DNA of 64,000 bases, taken from assembly GCA_025832235.1 (NCBI GenBank), contig GCA_025832235.1_3649.1; one strand, 5' to 3'. The DNA comes from a phage. Both the position numbers and the translations under genes were made by a program. Positions 2,399-64,000 of the stretch are shown here, piece after piece (position 1 is the stretch's first letter; each line of letters opens with the position of its first letter). The notes beneath the pieces were generated by a model. It had not been told where the DNA came from. It saw only the letters and a list, made by a program, of their open reading frames with translations, and did no database searches.

Positions 2399-2498
2399 AG
2401 TAACCCTCCGTTTTAATTTCAATGATAGTATACCTAACTGTTTTGTTAATTTCAAGTGTTGACACTGGGTTATTTGTGTGGCAGGATAAAGGGACAAA

Positions 2499-3434
2499 AT
2501 GACAAATGAGGAACGTATGATGAAGTATTTTAATGCAGACGACCTAGTTGACAAAGGTCTTGTAACCAGCAGATATTACCCAGATCTTGGGTTAAAGATC
2601 TATAAATATGCCAGAAAAGTATTCTACAACAACTTATGGCATTTGTCTCCTCGATTACTGGAGTGCCGAGGCATTGTTGTCGGTAATGAAGGAAATGTTG
2701 TGGCATGGCCCTTCACAAAAGTGTTTAACTTGGGAGAAAACTCCACCAACCTGCCTGACAATAAGCTTGTGACGGCGGTAGAGAAAAAGAACGGATTCCT
2801 TGGTGTGGTGTCATCTCATAAAGGTGAACTATTGTTCTCAACAACCGGGTCTCTTGATTCCCCATATTGTAACCTTGCAAAGGAAACCATCCAGGAGCAA
2901 TGCGGTAATTTAGATCTTATCAAGAAGGTTATGGGCAATGAAAACATGACATTCATGTTTGAAATTTGTCACCCTTCAGATCCGCATATTGTTCAGGAAG
3001 ATCATGGCGCATATTTGATAGGTTGCAGATATAATGATTCTGGAATAATGCTACCAGAAGCCGCTTTAGATGGGATTGCCAAATACCTTGGTGCAAAACG
3101 TCCTCACACTGTGCGTGAAATTCCGTTCAGCTATGCAAAAGAGTTAGCTGCAGAAACAAGAGGTGAAGGATATATGATTCGTAAGCCTTACTACCCTTAT
3201 GATCTGCAGTTGAAGATCAAGTCTCCATACTATCTGGCACGAAAGGCCGTAATGAGGGGTAAAGCTTGGAAGATTTGGGATGATGATATCTTTAAACGTG
3301 TTGACGAAGAGTTTTACGGCATGGTAAACTTCATTCGTAACAACTACACAGAGGATGTATGGAACTGCCTCCTGGAGCAGGAACGCCGTGAGATACTTGA
3401 CTGCTATTTCCACAACGAGGACTATATGCAATGA
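2499..3434 (+). CDS. rnlA: RNA ligase 1 (T4 RnlA-like)
   Basis: ECRGI, KVFNLGEN and nucleotidyltransferase motif I EKKNG, motif IV EGYMIR, motif V KIK; resemblance to T4 Rnl1 from memory. Confidence 0.7.
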   Translation: MTNEERMMKYFNADDLVDKGLVTSRYYPDLGLKIYKYARKVFYNNLWHLSPRLLECRGIVVGNEGNVVAWPFTKVFNLGENSTNLPDNKLVTAVEKKNGFLGVVSSHKGELLFSTTGSLDSPYCNLAKETIQEQCGNLDLIKKVMGNENMTFMFEICHPSDPHIVQEDHGAYLIGCRYNDSGIMLPEAALDGIAKYLGAKRPHTVREIPFSYAKELAAETRGEGYMIRKPYYPYDLQLKIKSPYYLARKAVMRGKAWKIWDDDIFKRVDEEFYGMVNFIRNNYTEDVWNCLLEQERREILDCYFHNEDYMQ

Positions 3435-3789: not shown

Positions 3790-4551
3790 ATGCGACGACT
3801 GATTATTATCTCCGGTGCTGGTTTGAGCGCTGAATCTGGTATTCCCACTTTCCGATCTGGTAGCACTGCAATGTGGGAGAATTTCAGCATCGATGAGGTG
3901 TGCAACATCCACACCTTTGCCAAGAACTACTACAAGGTGCATGACTTTTACAATGCACGTCGTGTAGCTCTAGGCGGTGTTGAGCCTAACCTTGCACATC
4001 TTCGGATCGCTGAGTGGTATTCCCGCTGGTCTGGTCGTGTGATCAACCTTACCACCAATGTAGATGATTTGCTGGAGCGTGCGGGTGTAAAACATGAAGA
4101 TATTTTACATGTTCACGGGTATTTGCCAGAAATAGTCTATGAGGACGATGAAGGAAGTGACGTCATTAAGGACATTGGATACTCTGAGGTAGATGCAGGA
4201 AAGTATACCTGGGTTAAACCTAATGTGGTGTTCTTCGGAGAAGTAGCTCCGAAGTATACAGACATGTATGACCTGTTGACTTCTCTTACAAGCAATGATA
4301 TGGTTATCCTTGTAGGGTGTTCCAACACAGTTATCAATTTTAACTGGGAGCTATTCCCTGCCTGCAATAAGGGAACCAAACTACTGATCGTTAATAAATA
4401 CGACTCACAGCATCTAGAGGAGAATGGCATTTCACGTAGTGATATTTACCAGTATGAGGATCGCGGCATCCCAGTTTGGTTTAACGGTGCGGTTGATGCC
4501 TTCTCTGATAAAACATTCATTGAGACCGTAGAAAACTTTATGGAACTTTAA
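3790..4551 (+). CDS. Sir2-family NAD-dependent deacylase / ADP-ribosyltransferase
   Basis: sirtuin signature GAGLSAESGIPTFRSG near N-terminus, later FFGE; GAGGA RBS. Confidence 0.8.
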   Translation: MRRLIIISGAGLSAESGIPTFRSGSTAMWENFSIDEVCNIHTFAKNYYKVHDFYNARRVALGGVEPNLAHLRIAEWYSRWSGRVINLTTNVDDLLERAGVKHEDILHVHGYLPEIVYEDDEGSDVIKDIGYSEVDAGKYTWVKPNVVFFGEVAPKYTDMYDLLTSLTSNDMVILVGCSNTVINFNWELFPACNKGTKLLIVNKYDSQHLEENGISRSDIYQYEDRGIPVWFNGAVDAFSDKTFIETVENFMEL

Positions 4552-4564
4552 AAGGAGACCTTTA

Positions 4565-5278
4565 ATGCTGAATACTAAATTAATTGACAACCTGGAAAAA
4601 CTGTCCCAACCTGAAAACTACCTTTGGTCTGCCAACTGGGTGGAAAACTGGAACCGTGTGGCAGCTAAAGTGAAAAAATCATACACACCGTTCGAATTAC
4701 AGCTTAGCTTCATTGAGGAAGAGTTCAATGAAGTTTTGGAAGAGCTGGAAAAAGGGGATGGTGGAGATCACCTGCTAAAAGAGGCCTGCGATCTTCACGT
4801 TGTCACAAGTTATGCCGCTTATCTTGTTAATGACAATCACGAAAAGTGGTCAAACCTGTTTGATAATCCACGAGGTCTTAAGTTCAAGATCGGTGAGTTC
4901 TATGATACACTGATCGCTGCGAAAAACACCTCTAAGCAAAGAGCATCCGCTTACCGCTTAGCAGAGTTGTCAACAGCTTTGCTGTTCCAGCTTCGCGGCG
5001 ATGTGTGCGGGATGATGCGTAAGGTTCTCAAATCGAATGACAGCAAGTTTGCACGGGTCAACCATCTACGGTATTCACACGGTGCCAGTGCAGATATGCC
5101 TGCTGAACAACTCATCGAGTTGGAGATTAAAGATCTTGAGCGACGCTTTGATGGTCGATATGAAGGTTTTGTTGCTAAGGAAGAATTCTACAACGGTAAT
5201 AAAGTTATCATATTCCTTGACAGTAAAGGTAAGATCATGAAGCCTTCGAGCTTCAAGGATGTAGCAGAGTATATTTAA
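4565..5278 (+). CDS. hypothetical protein, possible MazG-like NTP pyrophosphohydrolase N-domain
   Basis: EExxE...E..D pattern (IEEEFNEVLEELEKGD...LLKEACDL); followed by hairpin at about 5284-5300. Confidence 0.4.
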   Translation: MLNTKLIDNLEKLSQPENYLWSANWVENWNRVAAKVKKSYTPFELQLSFIEEEFNEVLEELEKGDGGDHLLKEACDLHVVTSYAAYLVNDNHEKWSNLFDNPRGLKFKIGEFYDTLIAAKNTSKQRASAYRLAELSTALLFQLRGDVCGMMRKVLKSNDSKFARVNHLRYSHGASADMPAEQLIELEIKDLERRFDGRYEGFVAKEEFYNGNKVIIFLDSKGKIMKPSSFKDVAEYI

Positions 5279-21987: not shown

Positions 21988-22266
21988 ATGAGCTGTGAAA
22001 AATCTTTTTTCTTTATTATTTACGGTAAAGATAACTGCCCACATTGTGTAAGAGCAAAAGAATTTGCAGTCAGTAAAGGTCTGCCTTTTGTATATAAGAC
22101 ACTTGGCGAGGGTTACACAAAAGAAGAGCTTATTGAGAAGTGTAGTCCAATCGTGCCCAGAACGTTGCCGCAGATCTTCTTAGAAAGCAATCTTGAAAGT
22201 GTCCATATAGGCGGTGCCGACGATTTCATCTCTTTTGTTAAGAATGGTTTTGGAGAGAAAAAGTGA
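21988..22266 (+). CDS. glutaredoxin/NrdH-like redoxin
   Basis: CPHC active site in thioredoxin-fold-sized protein between nrdB and nrdD. Confidence 0.7.
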   Translation: MSCEKSFFFIIYGKDNCPHCVRAKEFAVSKGLPFVYKTLGEGYTKEELIEKCSPIVPRTLPQIFLESNLESVHIGGADDFISFVKNGFGEKK

Positions 22267-23123
22267 AAGTTGTAAAACGGGACGGTAGAGAAGAGTTCTA
22301 TAACGGAATTAAGGTGATCAAGGCGGCAGAGTCCGCCTTACTTGAGTCTGGACATACTGAAGAAGAAGCTCACCGGATCGCCTGCGCGGTTAATGAAGTT
22401 GTTGCTAACAATCTACCAACCGACCAGTGCACGATCTCTGTAAAAAATATCCATATCCTTGTTGAAGACGCTCTTATGGATATGGGTTTAAAATGTGCAG
22501 CCAGAGAATACATCCAGTATAGACAGACAAGAGATAATAACAGAGAGGCAGGTGGAAAACTGCTTGCAGATATTAGTGGCTTCTTGGATCGAACTTGTGA
22601 TGAATTTACAAAAGAAAACGCAAATAAGCCTACTAATCATGTACACACTCATCGTGACCTGCTTGCAGGCATCCTTAGCAAACACCTTGCATCAACACAG
22701 ATCCTGCCAGACCGTGTTTCAGAAGAGCACAATAAAGGCTTCATCCATGTGCATGATCTTGACTACTTGATCAGTCCGTTAACAAACTGTTGTTTGGTAA
22801 ATTATCCAGATATGTTGGAAAACGGATTCAACATTGGTAACGCCCATGTCAGTAAGCCGAAGTCAATAGGGGTTGCAACAACAATCCTTAGCCAAATTTC
22901 TAGTGCAGTAGCTAGTGCTCAATATGGTGGTCAGACTATGAGCCATATTGATCATTACCTAGCACAGTATGCTGAAGCAACCTATGAGAAGAACCTTAAA
23001 TTTTGCCAGGAACATTGGTTGCCAGATGCTGAGACTGTTGCAATGCAAATGACAGATAAAGACGTGTTTGACAGCATGCAGACGTTGCTTTATCAGATCA
23101 ACACACTAACCTCGGTAAACGGT
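22263..23123 (+). CDS. nrdD: anaerobic ribonucleotide reductase, exon 1
   Basis: N-terminal ATP-cone VVKRDGREEFYNGIKV; frame ends 1 codon after proposed 5' splice site (exon ends ...NTLTSVNG). Confidence 0.8.
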
Positions 23124-23371
23124 TAACAAACTGGCCGTTTTAAAACTCTGCTAACCTCAGTATGAGGGGTCAGCTGATCGCTGGCTAACGGGGAACGCTA
23201 AGGCGAAAGCTATGCCAATCCCGTGACTAGCTTCACAAGGAGTGAGGCGGTTGTAACGACTAACCTTTTGGTGTAGGGATTATGGAAGATTCCGAAACGC
23301 AGAGGTCTGATTAAGAATCACACGGTGTGATTTCAGGCAAGAGATAGTCTGGCCTTGTGGAAACATAAGGG
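23124..23371 (+). ncRNA. group I self-splicing intron in nrdD (no internal ORF)
   Basis: 5' exon AAACGGU pairs with intron GCCGUUU (G.U at splice site); P7 GACUA (23225-23229)/UAGUC (23345-23349); hairpin CCUUGUG-GAAA-CAUAAGG then G at 23371; length restores frame. Confidence 0.6.
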
Positions 23372-24643
23372 TGGGGACCGCAAACCCCTTTTATCACATT
23401 AAGTTTAGGGCTGGATACCTCGGTCTTTGGTAGAATGATTACCAAAAACTACTTGAAAGTCCACAAAATGGGTCTTGGTGAAGAACGTATCACACCTGTG
23501 TTCCCTAAAGTGCTGTTCTTCCTGGAAGAGGGTGTCAACATGAACCCCGGAGATCCTAACTATGATTTGAAACGATTAGCTCTGGAATGCTCTGCAGAGC
23601 GGATTTATCCTGACTTTGTTTCTGTTCCACTAAATCGTAAAGTGACAGGCTCGACAGATGGCAAAGTAACGAGCATGGGTTGCCGGAGTTTTCTTAGCAA
23701 ATACAATGACTTGGAAACAGGTGAGGAGAAATACCTTGGCAGATTCAACTTGGGTGTTGTTAGCCTTAACCTACCAATGATTGCGGCAAAAGCTAAGACT
23801 GAAGGTGTTGATTTCTTTGCCGTTCTTGACGAGTATCTGGATTTGGCATATGAAGCTCACCTTGTAAGGGTTAACCGTCTGAAAGGCACCAAGGCAGGGC
23901 AGAACCCTATCATGTGGTGTGAAGGCGCTCTTGCTCGCTTGGACCCTGAAGAGAGTATTGATAAACTCTTCTATGACGGGTACGCTTCCATCAGTATTGG
24001 GTATATTGGTGTGTATGAAACCTGTCAGATTTTGGGCAGGGAGGGTGACAAGGCTTTAGCTCTTGGAATACTTCAGCACATGAGAGATGCTTGTGAGAGA
24101 TACAAGAAGGAAAGTAGACTAGCGTTTAGCTTGTACGGCACCCCTTCTGAGAGTCTATGCTATAAAGCTGCAACCTGTCTGGATCGTGAATATCCTGAAG
24201 TGTTGAAGCACGAGCATGAATATCTCACCAACAGTTTCCATCAGCCAGTATGGATAAATAGCTCTCCTTTTGATAAGTGGGAGTATGAGGAAGGTTTTGC
24301 TATGATCTCCTCTGGTGGCAACATCGGATACGTAGAGACACCTAACCTGAAAAACAACTTGGATGCTTTAGAGGCTCTTGTTGACTTCGGGTATAAACAC
24401 ATTATGTATTTTGGTATTAACCAACCTGTGGATAAATGTCTCAAGTGTGGTTTCTCTGGTGAGTTCAGTGCAACAGCTAAAGGGTTCTGCTGCCCTGCGT
24501 GCGGATGCCACGATGAACAATATATCTCAGTGATCCGAAGAGTGTCTGGATACCTTTCCAGTCCTAACTCCCGTCCTTACAATAAAGGTAAGCAAGCGGA
24601 AGTTATCGAGCGAGTTAAGCACTATGAAAGTTGTAGTTGCTGA
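23372..24643 (+). CDS. nrdD: anaerobic ribonucleotide reductase, exon 2
   Basis: VFPK, GDPNYD, LALEC...RIYPD, MGCRSFL, Zn site CLKCGF...CPACGC, glycyl-radical motif RVSGYL. Confidence 0.8.
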   Translation, partial: WGPQTPFITLSLGLDTSVFGRMITKNYLKVHKMGLGEERITPVFPKVLFFLEEGVNMNPGDPNYDLKRLALECSAERIYPDFVSVPLNRKVTGSTDGKVTSMGCRSFLSKYNDLETGEEKYLGRFNLGVVSLNLPMIAAKAKTEGVDFFAVLDEYLDLAYEAHLVRVNRLKGTKAGQNPIMWCEGALARLDPEESIDKLFYDGYASISIGYIGVYETCQILGREGDKALALGILQHMRDACERYKKESRLAFSLYGTPSESLCYKAATCLDREYPEVLKHEHEYLTNSFHQPVWINSSPFDKWEYEEGFAMISSGGNIGYVETPNLKNNLDALEALVDFGYKHIMYFGINQPVDKCLKCGFSGEFSATAKGFCCPACGCHDEQYISVIRRVSGYLSSPNSRPYNKGKQAEVIERVKHYESCSC

Positions 24644-57891: not shown

Positions 57892-58470
57892 TTAAAAGTA
57901 TTCGTATAAGTATCCATCTGGAGCTGGAATTTTTTCATGAATGTAGTAACCAATATATATTCCGGTTTCTCTGCTACAAGAGTTGTGAGATACCCATTCT
58001 TCAAGAACGTTACCATTCATGTCCAACCTCCTTACATTTTTGCACCGTCTACCGCTGGTGCTTCTATGTAACAGAATATCCTCTGTCTGCTTGTCTTTAT
58101 TTTCTCCCCAAGTCGTTAAACGGATATTATCAAAAGAGTACCCTTTGAAATCATCTATCCTGTCACAAGAAGGCTTTTTCCTTTTGTCGTATCCGCTGGC
58201 TACCCACTGATCATACAACTCTTTGTAACCGTTAAGGTATAGCCACTCCTTAAACTCTTTTTTGGTGTAAGTCGGAGGAGGGTGACCTCTTTGCTTGCTG
58301 TTGCACTTTTGAGCCTTGTACAACACACGTATTACACCTTTTTCTGAAGAGTCTTTAGCAAATTGGTCAGCCTCCCTGCTGGCCTTCTTGCAACACTCTT
58401 TGCACGTTGATTTGTTACTGGTGTAGAAGTCGGAGGCCTCCTTGTCCTCTCCACAACGTTTGCATTTCAT
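57892..58470 (-). CDS. homing-endonuclease-like protein (zinc finger plus degenerate HNH-like core)
   Basis: N-terminal CKRCGEDK...CKECC; central CDRIDDFKGYSFDNIRLTTWGEN; inference. Confidence 0.4.
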   Translation of the reverse strand: MKCKRCGEDKEASDFYTSNKSTCKECCKKASREADQFAKDSSEKGVIRVLYKAQKCNSKQRGHPPPTYTKKEFKEWLYLNGYKELYDQWVASGYDKRKKPSCDRIDDFKGYSFDNIRLTTWGENKDKQTEDILLHRSTSGRRCKNVRRLDMNGNVLEEWVSHNSCSRETGIYIGYYIHEKIPAPDGYLYEYF

Positions 58471-62341: not shown

Positions 62342-62565
62342 AGGTCCTCTTCAACAACTACAAACTTGGCAAGCAAAGTGGTTCCGTAGATATGATACTC
62401 ACCGTTTGCCAGGTGAGAGATATACCAGGCAACCCCTTCCTCGTCTTTAATCATTTTGTTTGCACGAGCTTTATCGTAATAAACCTCGTAGGTCTTTCCT
62501 TCTTTAAAGAATGACAGGTCTGTCATCTTTTCTTCTACAAAGGTAGCTTTAACCAAAGTCGTCAT
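62338..62565 (-). CDS. hypothetical protein
   Basis: ORF. Confidence 0.4.
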   Translation of the reverse strand: MTTLVKATFVEEKMTDLSFFKEGKTYEVYYDKARANKMIKDEEGVAWYISHLANGEYHIYGTTLLAKFVVVEEDL

Positions 62566-62879
62566 TGATCAGTCTCCTTCTTGTTAAGTCTGAATACTGC
62601 AATAATAGCATTCCCAAGGTGCAGTGTCAAGTCATTTCCAAGATACCACAGCATTCCACGGTCATCTTTGATGAAAGGGTAGCAATTTGGTGCCTTCTCT
62701 TTAATGAAAGGGTGACAATCTGGTGCTTTCCAGACATTGTACACTTTCCCAACCTGAAAGAAATCAGGCCCTGTTGGGATTTTAGTGCCTGGCCACACTT
62801 GAGATACCTGAACACACTCCACCTGCATAATAACAGGGATAGTCATGGATGTAAATGTTTTTGTTGGTTCTACTACCAT
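62562..62879 (-). CDS. hypothetical protein
   Basis: start moved to ATG 62879 after AAAGAGGAGAC. Confidence 0.45.
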   Translation of the reverse strand: MVVEPTKTFTSMTIPVIMQVECVQVSQVWPGTKIPTGPDFFQVGKVYNVWKAPDCHPFIKEKAPNCYPFIKDDRGMLWYLGNDLTLHLGNAIIAVFRLNKKETDQ

Positions 62880-62928
62880 AAAAGTCTCCTCTTTGCTCAA
62901 CAACACTTCCATGTGTTGATAGTTTACA

Positions 62929-63282
62929 TTAGTGACAATCACCCCAGTTACGACCACACAAGTATTCACCTGTGATCTGGAACGGGACTCCCATCATTTT
63001 AGAAGCTTGCCAGAAGCAATGCACCACCATTTCACCCACAGGGCTCCAGATAAGTTCAAGCTTTCCGTCATCGTTCAGGATAGGATCGTACACCGTGTTT
63101 CCGTCTCTGTCAACCACTTCGTTTCCGTTTTCATCCTTGCGTGCCTTTTTGTACTTATGACCGTCGAACACATGAAGTTTGGCTTCCTGCTCTGCCTTAA
63201 ATGCTTCCAGTTCTTCAATTGTGTCGAAGGTGTACACAGTCTTATACTTCGGTGTGTCAGGCACTTGAAGTTGGTACTCATC
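62929..63282 (-). CDS. family A DNA polymerase, 3' exon (C-terminal segment)
   Basis: begins DEYQLQV (completes HDE motif C); ends ...GVPFQITGEYLCGRNWGDCH like the Pol I/T7 C-terminal ...NW..H. Confidence 0.7.
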   Translation of the reverse strand, partial: DEYQLQVPDTPKYKTVYTFDTIEELEAFKAEQEAKLHVFDGHKYKKARKDENGNEVVDRDGNTVYDPILNDDGKLELIWSPVGEMVVHCFWQASKMMGVPFQITGEYLCGRNWGDCH

Positions 63283-63558
63283 CAATAGTTCAGGTAGGTC
63301 GTTAAGCTACCCCGCACCATTACGTGCATAGCCATACGTTTTCACGTAGGATCGGACCATCTCATATTCCTATGATAAGCAACCACAGGAATCCTCCCAT
63401 TTCGACCGCACTTGCTGGTCTACTTCCTTTCGGAATGGCCTCTGAGCGTTCGCTCTTTTGAGCGCTTCGTTGCGGATTACCTTGCCATAAGGTTTAGGCT
63501 TCCCGCAGTTAAAGAGGTTATTCGACATAGATTACTCTATGAAGCCACAATGTTATTT
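63283..63558 (-). ncRNA. group I self-splicing intron in DNA polymerase gene (no internal ORF)
   Basis: 5' exon ends CAU, intron ends G; elements ACUGCGGGAAGCC (P), GUAAUCCGCAACG (Q), GUAGACCAGC (R) and GAGAUGGUCCG (S); length restores frame. Confidence 0.7.
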
Positions 63559-64000
63559 ATGGTAATAAATAATACGACGAACACCTTCATCGTACCACCC
63601 ACGCTTCACCATCTGGCGGTGCATGAGTATTCCAACTAAGTCACACAGCGATGCACCACCATTTTGTTGGTATGCATTAAGTAAAGAGTGTTTAGATCTG
63701 GTCCAGATAGCATGACCATCAAAAGAGTAGATAAACTTCTTACCCGTTGCTTCCCAGAATTTCTCCAGATCTTCTTTACGCCCCTTAAGACCAGGGTTGG
63801 CATCCCAGAGTGCATCGATTACCCTTTGTCCCAACTCTGGAGAGATGTCCAGCATATCTGCAACTTTATCTTTTTGTGCCCCATACATAACCCCATACGT
63901 GATAGGTTTACCGTCGTTACGGGAAATCTCCTTGCCTGCTACAGAAGAGTAAGCTTTGGCGTTATTACAGTTACCGCACACTGCCACTTTACCATTCCTT
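63559..64000 (-). CDS. family A DNA polymerase, 5' exon (partial, continues beyond window end)
   Basis: motif B-like region ...AKAYSSV...YGVMYGAQ... and NAYQQNGGASLCDL; ends ...VRRIIYYH at the splice site. Confidence 0.7.

What the first reader, a model, noticed from the sequence alone, without database searches (positions are those of the whole stretch)
62929..64000. Group I intron inserted exactly at the catalytic HDE motif of the family A DNA polymerase
The upstream exon ends ...VRRIIYYH (codon CAU) and the downstream exon begins DEYQLQV, so removing 276 nt rebuilds the motif C sequence HDE. The intervening sequence has recognisable P, Q, R and S elements, starts after a U and ends in G. 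This is the second ORF-less intron in the window, in an essential gene at its most conserved codons.
Basis: partly seen in the sequence, partly recalled or inferred. Interest (0 to 1): 0.55.

Follow-up and report, generated by a model that had tools for sequence, protein, structure and literature searches.

The report
Known self-splicing intron in phage polymerase
A 276-base self-splicing (group I) intron really does split the DNA polymerase gene of this rV5-like coliphage between the His and Asp of its catalytic HDE motif, but the identical intron and its junction are already annotated in public phage genomes, so it is a correct but ordinary finding.

Summary
The observation and the interpretation both hold. 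On the minus strand, window 63558..63283 (276 nt) is a group I intron (Rfam RF00028, 64.7 bits, gathering score 50, E 4e-14). It follows a U that pairs with G in P1 and it ends in G. It carries P7.1-GUA-P7.2, the mark of subgroup IA2, and 26 of 64 base pairs show compensatory changes across six relatives.

Removing it joins ...RRIIYYH to DEYQLQV.... The joined sequence aligns without gaps to T7 DNA polymerase His653-Asp654-Glu655 and to intron-less polymerase genes of sister phages (HdK5, bov25_3), with identical amino acids.

The window comes from a Vequintavirus (rV5-like coliphage), and the finding is not new:
- The same 276 nt are 100% identical in rV5 and about 20 other records.
- GenBank MZ501102 (RudolfGeigy) annotates the polymerase as a joined CDS. 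My in-silico spliced protein is exactly QXV84155.1.
- A homologous intron carrying an HNH gene sits at the same H|DE site in Pectobacterium phage CB7, where RT-PCR and sequencing showed splicing.
- T7-like phages PhiI and W31 have IA2 introns at codon 881, the same His.

About 59 related records carry the intron and about 49 lack it. Splicing of this copy was not tested.

The parts
63970..64000 (-). Last 10 codons (...RNGKVAVCGN) of a probable intein inserted further upstream in the same polymerase gene. The rest lies beyond the window end.
   Evidence: Phage 241Ecol014PP has an in-frame insertion of about 323 aa (CYSGDTQILTEKGW...VAVCGN|C) that intein-less HdK5 lacks. Pfam Hint_2 gives E 7e-5, below the gathering score.
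63559..63969 (-). Polymerase exon 1 (the part in the window, after the intein). It encodes motif B (GKPITYGVMYGAQ) and ends ...RRIIYYH. The last base, U63559, is the 5' splice-site U.
   Evidence: Translation. Aligns to T7 DNA polymerase residues 510-653.
63283..63558 (-). Group I intron of subgroup IA2, 276 nt, without an endonuclease gene.
   Evidence: Rfam RF00028, 64.7 bits, E 4e-14. Absent from the intron-less alleles L004 and L005. 100% identical in rV5, RudolfGeigy and others.
63545..63562 (-). P1 hairpin. Exon CCAU (63562..63559) plus intron AA (63558..63557) pair with the internal guide sequence UUGUGG (63550..63545). U63559 pairs with G63548 (U.G wobble) at the splice site. The in-frame stop UAA (63555..63553) lies in the loop.
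   Evidence: Rfam alignment. All six pairs are invariant in six homologues.
63549..63552 (-). The part of the guide sequence (CAUU) that can pair with the first exon-2 bases GAUG (63282..63279) to form P10.
   Evidence: 95.7% paired in six homologues against 26-61% for slid controls, but with no covariation. Every intron-bearing allele has GAU for Asp, while intron-less alleles have GAC.
63526..63541 (-). P2 hairpin.
   Evidence: 3 of 5 pairs show compensatory changes.
63393..63517 (-). P3 (63517..63512 with 63398..63393), which encloses P4 (63507..63502 with 63476..63471), P5 (63499..63479), P6/P6a (63469..63447), the 5' strand of P7, P7.1 and P7.2.
   Evidence: P3, P4 and P6a all show compensatory changes. 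In FFH2-type introns the HNH gene sits in the P6a loop.
63353..63444 (-). P7 pseudoknot helix, which holds the guanosine-binding site: 63444..63436 paired with 63359..63353.
   Evidence: 7 pairs, 100% paired, 2 compensatory.
63404..63435 (-). P7.1 (63435..63424, GAAA loop), GUA linker (63423..63421) and P7.2 (63420..63404). This arrangement is the signature of subgroup IA2.
   Evidence: The GUA is invariant in six homologues. P7.2 has a compensatory pair. The IA2 criterion is quoted from PMC3428280.
63366..63392 (-). P8 hairpin.
   Evidence: 4 of 6 pairs compensatory.
63293..63348 (-). P9 (63348..63335, GAAA loop), P9.1 (63327..63314) and P9.2 (63311..63293).
   Evidence: Compensatory pairs: 4 of 5 in P9, 1 of 4 in P9.1 and 3 of 5 in P9.2.
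63283..63283 (-). Terminal G of the intron (omega G), at the 3' splice site.
   Evidence: Seen directly in the sequence. Conserved in all eight homologous introns.
62929..63282 (-). Polymerase exon 2: DEYQLQV...GRNWGDCH*. It carries the catalytic Asp-Glu of motif C and the C-terminal His.
   Evidence: Translation. 'HDEyql' aligns to T7 'HDEiqv' at residues 653-658. Contiguous with exon 1 in HdK5 and bov25_3.

Best explanation
Window 63558..63283 (minus strand) is a subgroup IA2 group I intron, a self-splicing ribozyme, in the T7-like family A DNA polymerase gene of a Vequintavirus (rV5-like) coliphage.

Inferred mechanism, following the standard group I pathway:
1. In the primary transcript the last exon-1 bases (CCAU) pair with the intron's guide sequence (UUGUGG). 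This presents the U.G wobble pair at the 5' splice site.
2. A free guanosine bound in P7 attacks after U63559.
3. The guide sequence then aligns exon 2 (GAUG) through P10.
4. The freed exon-1 3'-OH attacks after the terminal G63283. This joins CAU to GAU and rebuilds His-Asp-Glu.

Unspliced RNA stops at a UAA two codons into the intron. That product would lack both catalytic carboxylates of motif C, so active polymerase depends on splicing.

This copy has no endonuclease gene. Sister phages carry intron variants with an I-BasI/I-HmuI-like HNH gene in the P6a loop. Those presumably spread the intron family by homing into intron-less alleles, which make up about 45% of related genomes.

Shown here: the sequence anatomy, family membership, covariation, the exact junction and the distribution among relatives. 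Inferred: the catalysis itself, supported by RT-PCR on the CB7 homologue, and homing.
For: - Rfam RF00028 gives 64.7 bits against a gathering score of 50, E 4e-14, over the full model. Homologous introns in relatives score 71-91 bits, and the intron-less loci give no hit.
- The structure P1-P9.2 with the P7 pseudoknot is 98.4% paired across six homologues, with 26 of 64 pairs compensatory. Slid controls give 33-40% paired and 1-4 compensatory pairs. No shuffle out of 500 reaches the observed values.
- P7.1-GUA-P7.2 is present.
- The in-silico spliced sequence aligns without gaps to the continuous polymerase genes of HdK5 and bov25_3. The 30 amino acids translated across the junction are identical, and DNA identity over the 283 aligned bases is about 95%.
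- The junction aligns to T7 DNA polymerase H653|D654-E655. The full-length spliced protein matches T7 DNA polymerase residues 468-658 at E 8e-16.
- GenBank MZ501102 annotates the same gene as a two-part join. Removing the identical 276 nt gives exactly protein QXV84155.1.
- The CB7 intron containing HNH gene CB7_50 has the same flanks (...RRIIYYH | DEYQLE...) and the same 5' intron sequence. RT-PCR and Sanger sequencing showed that it splices (PMC7344957).
- The HNH gene of the FFH2-type intron lies in the P6a loop. It belongs to phrog_59 and is 39% identical to I-BasI over residues 10-98.
Against: - No RNA data exist for this phage or for the 276-nt variant without an endonuclease gene, so splicing and self-splicing are inferred.
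- P1 and P10 are invariant among the homologues, so they get no support from covariation.
- The covariation test uses only six sequences, and I drew the structure while looking at those same sequences.
- This variant scores lower against Rfam (64.7 bits) than its relatives (71-91 bits), because its P5 is shorter and it has a 34-nt insertion relative to the model.
- Pfam DNA_pol_A scores 31.6 bits on the full-length protein, just below its 34.3-bit cut-off.
Confidence: 0.93

Rival explanations
1. The gene is truly split. The intervening RNA is not removed, and the polymerase is assembled from two separately translated polypeptides: a large N-terminal fragment ending ...YYHK, and a 118-aa fragment starting at the UUG formed by the last three intron bases. 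This would resemble the NrdA of Aeromonas phage Aeh1, which is split by mobE.
For: - Many GenBank records, including RefSeq rV5, annotate two separate 'DNA polymerase' CDSs.
- An in-frame UUG (AUG in FFH2-type introns) directly precedes exon 2.
- The CB7 paper reports one HNH-associated insertion, in a different gene, that did not splice.
Against: - A complete and covarying ribozyme core would have no reason to be conserved.
- The break would separate adjacent catalytic-motif residues, His and Asp.
- No Shine-Dalgarno-like sequence is visible in the 16 bases upstream of the UUG (CCUACCUGAACUAUUG).
- The homologous CB7 intron at this very site is spliced.
Confidence: 0.04
2. The element is a decayed intron that lost its endonuclease gene and no longer splices efficiently. 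The polymerase gene would then be crippled, or rescued by a host or helper function.
For: - The copy has no endonuclease gene.
- Its Rfam score is lower than that of its relatives.
Against: - The identical intron is present in many independently isolated, plaque-forming lytic phages, including rV5, RudolfGeigy, MaxTheCat, PDX and navn.
- No other polymerase match turned up in the records searched.
- Every core helix is intact in this copy.
- There are 0 mismatches in 276 nt, while the flanking exons differ by 1-5%.
Confidence: 0.02

Closest known systems
The same intron in Escherichia phage rV5 (DQ832317 / NC_011041) and in BASEL phages RudolfGeigy (MZ501102) and MaxTheCat (MZ501094)
   Same: The 276-nt sequence is 100% identical and sits at the same position. 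RudolfGeigy's polymerase CDS is annotated as a two-part join with exactly this junction, and the protein is QXV84155.1.
   Different: Nothing in the intron differs. The flanking exons differ by 1-5%. The rV5 RefSeq record and the 2013 rV5 paper do not recognise the intron: they describe a 775-aa polymerase and call two hypothetical ORFs inside the intron.
Second DNA polymerase intron of Pectobacterium phage CB7 (Certrevirus), which carries HNH gene CB7_50
   Same: It has the same insertion point (...RRIIYYH | DEYQLE...), the same P1/guide sequence and a homologous 3' half. RT-PCR plus Sanger sequencing showed that it splices in vivo (PMC7344957).
   Different: The CB7 intron is 687 nt and encodes an HNH endonuclease, whereas the window copy is 276 nt with no such gene. 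CB7 has a further intron in motif B, which the window lacks. Identity is about 75% over the alignable parts.
Vequintavirus introns of the FFH2 / AlexBoehm type (HNH gene present) and the JLBYU08 / JEP1 type (329 nt, no ORF)
   Same: They share the site, P1, P2, P3 and the P9-P9.2 region.
   Different: P5, P6a, P7.1 and P8 differ, with compensatory changes. FFH2 equals JLBYU08 plus an HNH gene in the P6a loop. The relationships are mosaic, which suggests recombination within the intron.
[quoted passage not shown]
   Same: They are subgroup IA2 introns in a T7-type family A polymerase, inserted at 'site 881' in E. coli Pol I numbering. That is the His of H881-D882-E883, the same motif. The numbering of the motif is from established knowledge.
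   Different: Those introns carry an HNH gene in P6a. My blastn search found no nucleotide similarity. I could not check the exact codon phase, because the original paper and sequences AY769989 and AY769990 were not available.
DNA polymerase introns of SPO1, SP82, Bastille and Pf-WMP3 (I-HmuI, I-HmuII, I-BasI, I-PfoP3I)
   Same: They are IA2 group I introns in phage family A polymerase genes, associated with HNH nicking endonucleases of the same broad family (phrog_59, I-BasI similarity).
   Different: Their insertion site is different: codon 674 in E. coli numbering, in the fingers subdomain rather than motif C.
Phage T4 td, nrdB and nrdD (sunY) introns
   Same: They are phage IA2 self-splicing introns at conserved sites of nucleotide-metabolism genes (established knowledge). 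The same window also has an intron in nrdD.
   Different: The host gene is different. Whether the window's nrdD intron sits at the T4 position was not compared.

Membership tests
Group I intron (Rfam RF00028) | Covariance-model score at or above the curated gathering score | tested here: met
   64.7 bits against a gathering score of 50, E 4e-14, model positions 1-253.
Group I intron (Rfam RF00028) | 5' splice site after a U that forms a U.G wobble pair in P1 with an internal guide sequence | tested here: met
   Exon CCAU|AA pairs with UUGUGG, and U63559 pairs with G63548. Invariant in six homologues.
Group I intron (Rfam RF00028) | Intron ends in G (omega G), and P10 can align the 3' exon | tested here: met
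   G63283 is conserved in eight homologues. P10, GAUG with CAUU, is 95.7% paired but invariant, so its support is weak.
Group I intron (Rfam RF00028) | Conserved core helices P3-P8, including the P3/P7 pseudoknot, supported by covariation | tested here: met
   98.4% of cells are paired and 26 of 64 pairs have changes on both sides. Slid controls give 33-40% paired. Caveat: only six sequences, and the structure was drawn from them.
Group I intron (Rfam RF00028) | Precise excision restores a continuous host reading frame that matches intron-less alleles | tested here: met
   Gap-free alignment to HdK5 and bov25_3, with identical amino acids across the junction.
Group I intron (Rfam RF00028) | Guanosine-initiated self-splicing activity | not testable with these tools
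   There is only indirect support: the homologous CB7 intron is spliced in vivo (PMC7344957).
Subgroup IA2 | Extra helices P7.1 and P7.2 between P7 and P3', joined by G-U-A | tested here: met
   P7.1 is UUCC-GAAA-GGAA, the GUA is at 63423..63421 and invariant, and P7.2 has a compensatory pair. The criterion is as stated in PMC3428280.
Mobile (homing) group I intron | Encodes a homing endonuclease | tested here: not met
   The window copy has no conserved ORF. Sister variants carry an HNH gene in P6a.
Family A (T7-like) DNA polymerase (the host gene) | Motif C His-Asp-Glu, with the catalytic Asp aligned to T7 D654 / E. coli Pol I D882 | tested here: met
   'iiyyHDEyql' aligns to T7 'mawvHDEiqv' at residues 649-658. 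The full-length protein matches T7 DNA polymerase residues 468-658 at E 8e-16.
Family A (T7-like) DNA polymerase (the host gene) | Pfam DNA_pol_A (PF00476) at or above the gathering score | tested here: inconclusive
   31.6 bits against a cut-off of 34.3 for the 925-aa spliced homologue, E 1.1e-7. The protein is divergent, but its only solved-structure matches are T7 DNA polymerase.

The most novel reading that the evidence does not exclude
The 276-nt variant without an endonuclease gene may not be a passive relic. It may be moving or being actively maintained among co-infecting Vequintaviruses.

It is base-for-base identical in the four genomes I compared, whose flanking exons differ by 1-5%, and about 20 records carry it at 99% identity or more. 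It shares mosaic segments with variants that carry an HNH gene. At least one carrier (241Ecol014PP) has a free-standing HNH gene directly downstream of exon 2.

This fits mobilisation in trans by sibling or free-standing endonucleases ('collaborative homing'), protection of the polymerase target site against those endonucleases, or both.
Probability: 0.3. Interest if true: 0.35.

Novelty: already known. Interest (0 to 1): 0.15.

Why it matters
It matters little as a discovery. Group I introns at the most conserved codons of phage polymerase genes have been a textbook pattern since SPO1 (1990). This insertion site was reported for T7-like phages in 2004. A homologue was shown to splice in 2020, and this exact intron has been annotated in GenBank since 2021.

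The practical value is for annotation:
- Many rV5-like records, including RefSeq rV5, still list a truncated '775-aa polymerase', a separate small 'DNA polymerase', and one or two hypothetical proteins that are really intron sequence.
- The locus is also a convenient natural system for studying intron and endonuclease dynamics. Cultivable E. coli phages, several of them in the BASEL collection, offer intron-less alleles, alleles with the intron but no endonuclease gene, and alleles with the HNH gene.

Tried and rejected
- Exact search for the spliced 15-mer junction in the intron-less loci found nothing. The cause is synonymous differences next to the junction, and a proper alignment resolved it.
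- I tried to read Bonocora & Shub 2004 (by DOI and as PMC529087) and the phiL7 paper (PMC2794104), and to fetch AY769990. None is held. A further literature search added nothing. The PhiI/W31 'site 881' statement therefore rests on PMC3428280 alone.
- I considered that the cluster of synonymous differences at the start of exon 2 (GAT GAG TAC CAA against GAC GAA TAT CAG) might be specific to the variant without an endonuclease gene and might confer endonuclease immunity. I rejected that as stated. The 80-nt junction probe from the window matches several HNH-carrying phages (AlexBoehm, EmilHeitz, FV3, Phage 203/206) at 97.5-98.8% identity, which indicates they share this exon-2 start, though I did not read their sequences directly. 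Only GAU against GAC for Asp separates the intron-bearing loci I read directly from the two intron-less ones, which fits P10 pairing.
- An alternative outer helix for P9.1 (positions 237-240 with 260-263) is contradicted by the Avunavirus and Vibrio sequences. The P9.2 hairpin is supported instead.
- The 52-codon ORF inside the intron, and the rV5 ORFs gp221 and gp222, were considered as possible genes. They are not conserved among homologous introns.
- The single-sequence MFE fold (z = -2.83) recovers only some helices and misses the pseudoknot, so it was not used as evidence.
- The promoter and terminator scan of 62500..64000 showed nothing above shuffled expectation.

Full report
**What is in the sequence**

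The genes at the right end of the window read on the minus strand.
- An ORF running in from the window edge ends ...DEGVRRIIYYH-K-stop. The His codon CAT is at 63561..63559 and the stop TAA at 63555..63553.
- Exactly 276 nt further on, a second frame reads DEYQLQVPDTPKYK...GRNWGDCH-stop (63282..62929).
- Deleting 63558..63283 gives one continuous frame...RRIIYYHDEYQLQV....

**Is it a group I intron?**

- A scan of the whole window against Rfam finds one match above threshold: RF00028 (group I intron) at 63568..63333 on the minus strand. It scores 64.7 bits against a gathering score of 50, E 4e-14, over the full model.
- The model's P1 puts the conserved splice-site U on U63559.
- I drew the full secondary structure from this alignment and from homologues: P1, P2, P3, P4, P5, P6/P6a, the P7 pseudoknot, P7.1, P7.2, P8, P9, P9.1 and P9.2. 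Every pair is canonical in the window sequence.
- On an alignment of six introns without an endonuclease gene from this site (window, JLBYU08, JEP1, Avunavirus 18-1-2, Vibrio phages K412 and 10AMN), 98.4% of cells are paired and 26 of 64 pairs have changes on both sides.
- Sliding the 3' partners by 1-3 columns gives 33-40% paired and 1-4 such pairs. No shuffle out of 500 reaches the observed values.
- Caveats: there are only six sequences, and the structure was drawn while looking at them. P1 and P10 never vary, so covariation says nothing about them.
- P7.1 and P7.2 lie between P7 and P3' and are joined by an invariant G-U-A. That is the stated criterion for subgroup IA2 (PMC3428280).

**Is the junction right?**

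- The spliced C-terminal 264 aa align to T7 DNA polymerase residues 510-658. 'iiyyHDEyql' lies over 'mawvHDEiqv', so the intron sits between the equivalents of His653 and the metal-binding Asp654 (the role of D654 is established knowledge).
- A tblastn search found very close relatives whose polymerase gene is continuous across this point: HdK5 (MK373780) and bov25_3 (MT884011), both 97% identical in protein.
- The in-silico spliced DNA aligns to both without a gap at about 95% identity. The 30 amino acids translated across the junction are identical.
- Shifting either boundary by one base destroys the match, so the boundaries are unique.
- The intron-less loci give no Rfam hit. Every intron-bearing relative gives one at the same place, at 65-91 bits for the variants without an ORF.

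**Where the window comes from, and what is already known**

- The region is 94-98% identical to Vequintavirus genomes, the rV5-like E. coli myophages.
- The 276-nt intron is 100% identical in rV5 itself and in many other records; 23 records are at 99% identity or more.
- RefSeq rV5 annotates a 775-aa 'DNA polymerase', two hypothetical proteins that lie inside the intron, and a second small 'DNA polymerase'. The 2013 rV5 paper describes introns only in the terminase gene and treats the polymerase as 775 aa (PMC3606486).
- The BASEL collection record for phage RudolfGeigy (MZ501102) annotates the polymerase as a two-part join. The BASEL paper says intron boundaries were defined by comparative genomics (PMC8594841).
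- I removed the identical 276 nt from that record and translated it. An exact-sequence look-up returns NCBI protein QXV84155.1, 'DNA polymerase [Escherichia phage RudolfGeigy]'.
- That full-length spliced protein matches T7 DNA polymerase residues 468-658 at E 8e-16. Pfam DNA_pol_A scores just under its cut-off, at 31.6 against 34.3 bits.

**Experimental support from a homologue**

- Pectobacterium phage CB7 (Certrevirus, same subfamily) has polymerase pieces CB7_51 (ending ...RRIIYYHK*) and CB7_49 (containing ...LLDEYQLEV...). They are separated by an intron that starts CAT|AAGTAACATTGTGGC and holds HNH gene CB7_50.
- It is about 75% identical to the window intron over the alignable parts.
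- The CB7 paper shows by RT-PCR and Sanger sequencing of cDNA that this intron is spliced during infection (PMC7344957).

**The site in other phages**

- The same H|DE site is occupied by homologous introns in an Avunavirus and in two Vibrio phages.
- The literature places the IA2 introns of T7-like phages PhiI and W31 at 'site 881' in E. coli Pol I numbering. That is the His of H881-D882-E883 (PMC3428280).
- I could not obtain the original paper or the sequences to check the codon phase.

**Variants and distribution**

- In FFH2-type phages the two polymerase pieces are separated by 843 nt that include a 168-aa HNH endonuclease.
- Alignment shows that FFH2's intron equals the 329-nt JLBYU08 intron (which has no ORF) plus the HNH gene in the P6a loop. 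That is where the PhiI, W31 and Pf-WMP3 endonuclease genes sit.
- The HNH protein belongs to phrog_59 and is 39% identical to I-BasI over its N-terminal domain.
- The window's variant shares P1-P3 and P9-P9.2 with these introns. Its P5, P6a, P7.1 and P8 differ, with compensatory changes, so the relationship is mosaic.
- Diagnostic 80-nt junction probes find 49 records with a continuous intron-less junction and 59 with the intron/exon-2 junction (some are duplicate RefSeq/GenBank pairs).
- The intron shows 0 mismatches in 276 nt against rV5, 241Ecol014PP, RudolfGeigy and navn, while the flanking exons differ by 1-5%. This would fit recent horizontal spread, strong constraint on the ribozyme, or both.
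- Every intron-bearing allele uses GAU for the Asp codon, and the intron-less alleles use GAC. GAU allows a third P10 base pair.

**How it most likely works**

The mechanism is the standard group I pathway, and it is inferred here.
1. P1 presents the U.G pair at the 5' splice site.
2. Guanosine bound in P7 attacks after U63559.
3. P10 aligns exon 2.
4. The exon-1 3'-OH attacks after G63283 and joins the exons.

Because UAA lies two codons into the intron, unspliced RNA yields a protein without the motif C carboxylates. Polymerase activity therefore depends on splicing. The main rival is a truly split gene translated as two polypeptides. The conserved, covarying ribozyme, the position of the break between adjacent catalytic-motif residues and the CB7 result all argue against it.

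**Verdict**

The identical sequence with the identical annotated junction is public, a homologue has been shown to splice, and the site is known from T7-like phages. Interest is low.

The only mildly open question is whether the variant without an endonuclease gene is being mobilised or maintained through endonucleases encoded elsewhere. One example is the free-standing HNH gene directly downstream of exon 2 in 241Ecol014PP.

Noticed in passing
window 23124..23380 (+): A second group I intron without an ORF, 257 nt long, splits the anaerobic ribonucleotide reductase gene nrdD. Exon 1 (22263..23123) ends ...TLTSVNG (GGU|UAA) and exon 2 starts at CAA 23381. The spliced 707-aa protein aligns without gaps to T4 NrdD (1H78, residues 132-280) across 'NG|QTPF'. 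The Rfam score is only 28.9 bits, below the gathering score.
   Followed up: partly
window 63970..64000 (-), continuing beyond the window end: The polymerase gene also appears to carry an intein just before motif B. The window holds its last 10 codons (...VAVCGN, followed by extein Cys). In 241Ecol014PP the whole insert of about 323 aa (CYSGDTQILTEKGW...) is in frame, and it is absent from HdK5 (DAH|QNNAEAY). Pfam Hint_2 reaches only E 7e-5.
   Followed up: partly
L001 (rV5 NC_011041) 3915-4073 and 4108-4368; the 2013 rV5 paper: RefSeq rV5 gp222 lies wholly inside the intron, and gp221 lies partly inside it and partly out of frame in exon 2. Both are probably annotation artefacts. The '775-aa DNA polymerase' in the paper is the unspliced exon-1 product.
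   Followed up: partly
L003 (241Ecol014PP) 4593-5240; L002 (FFH2) 730-1464; L004 (HdK5) 1-228: Free-standing HNH endonuclease genes flank the polymerase gene in several relatives, directly downstream of exon 2 or directly upstream of the start. The whole locus looks like a hotspot for selfish elements.
   Followed up: no
L007 (CB7) 2446-3116; L012 (Avunavirus 18-1-2) 614-817: CB7 has a further group I intron upstream in the same polymerase gene, within motif B (...GVTYG | MYGAQ...), and 18-1-2 has a group I hit upstream as well whose exact site I did not map. The window's sequence is continuous at the CB7 site (GKPITYGVMYGAQ).
   Followed up: no
window 57892..58470 (-): A 192-aa ORF with CxxC pairs matches phrog_1035 'endonuclease VII' (E 4e-32) and, weakly, HNH endonuclease families. 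It may be a free-standing homing-type endonuclease.
   Followed up: partly
public records MG065635-MG065690: About 15-20 records named 'Campylobacter phage ...' with host C. jejuni are about 97% identical to this coliphage region, and some carry the identical intron. The host labels look doubtful.
   Followed up: no
hit H148 (Escherichia phage Av-05, terminase large subunit): Nucleotides 8-148 of the polymerase intron are 73% identical to a stretch in a Vequintavirus terminase large-subunit gene. This suggests the terminase introns reported for rV5 are related to the polymerase intron.
   Followed up: no
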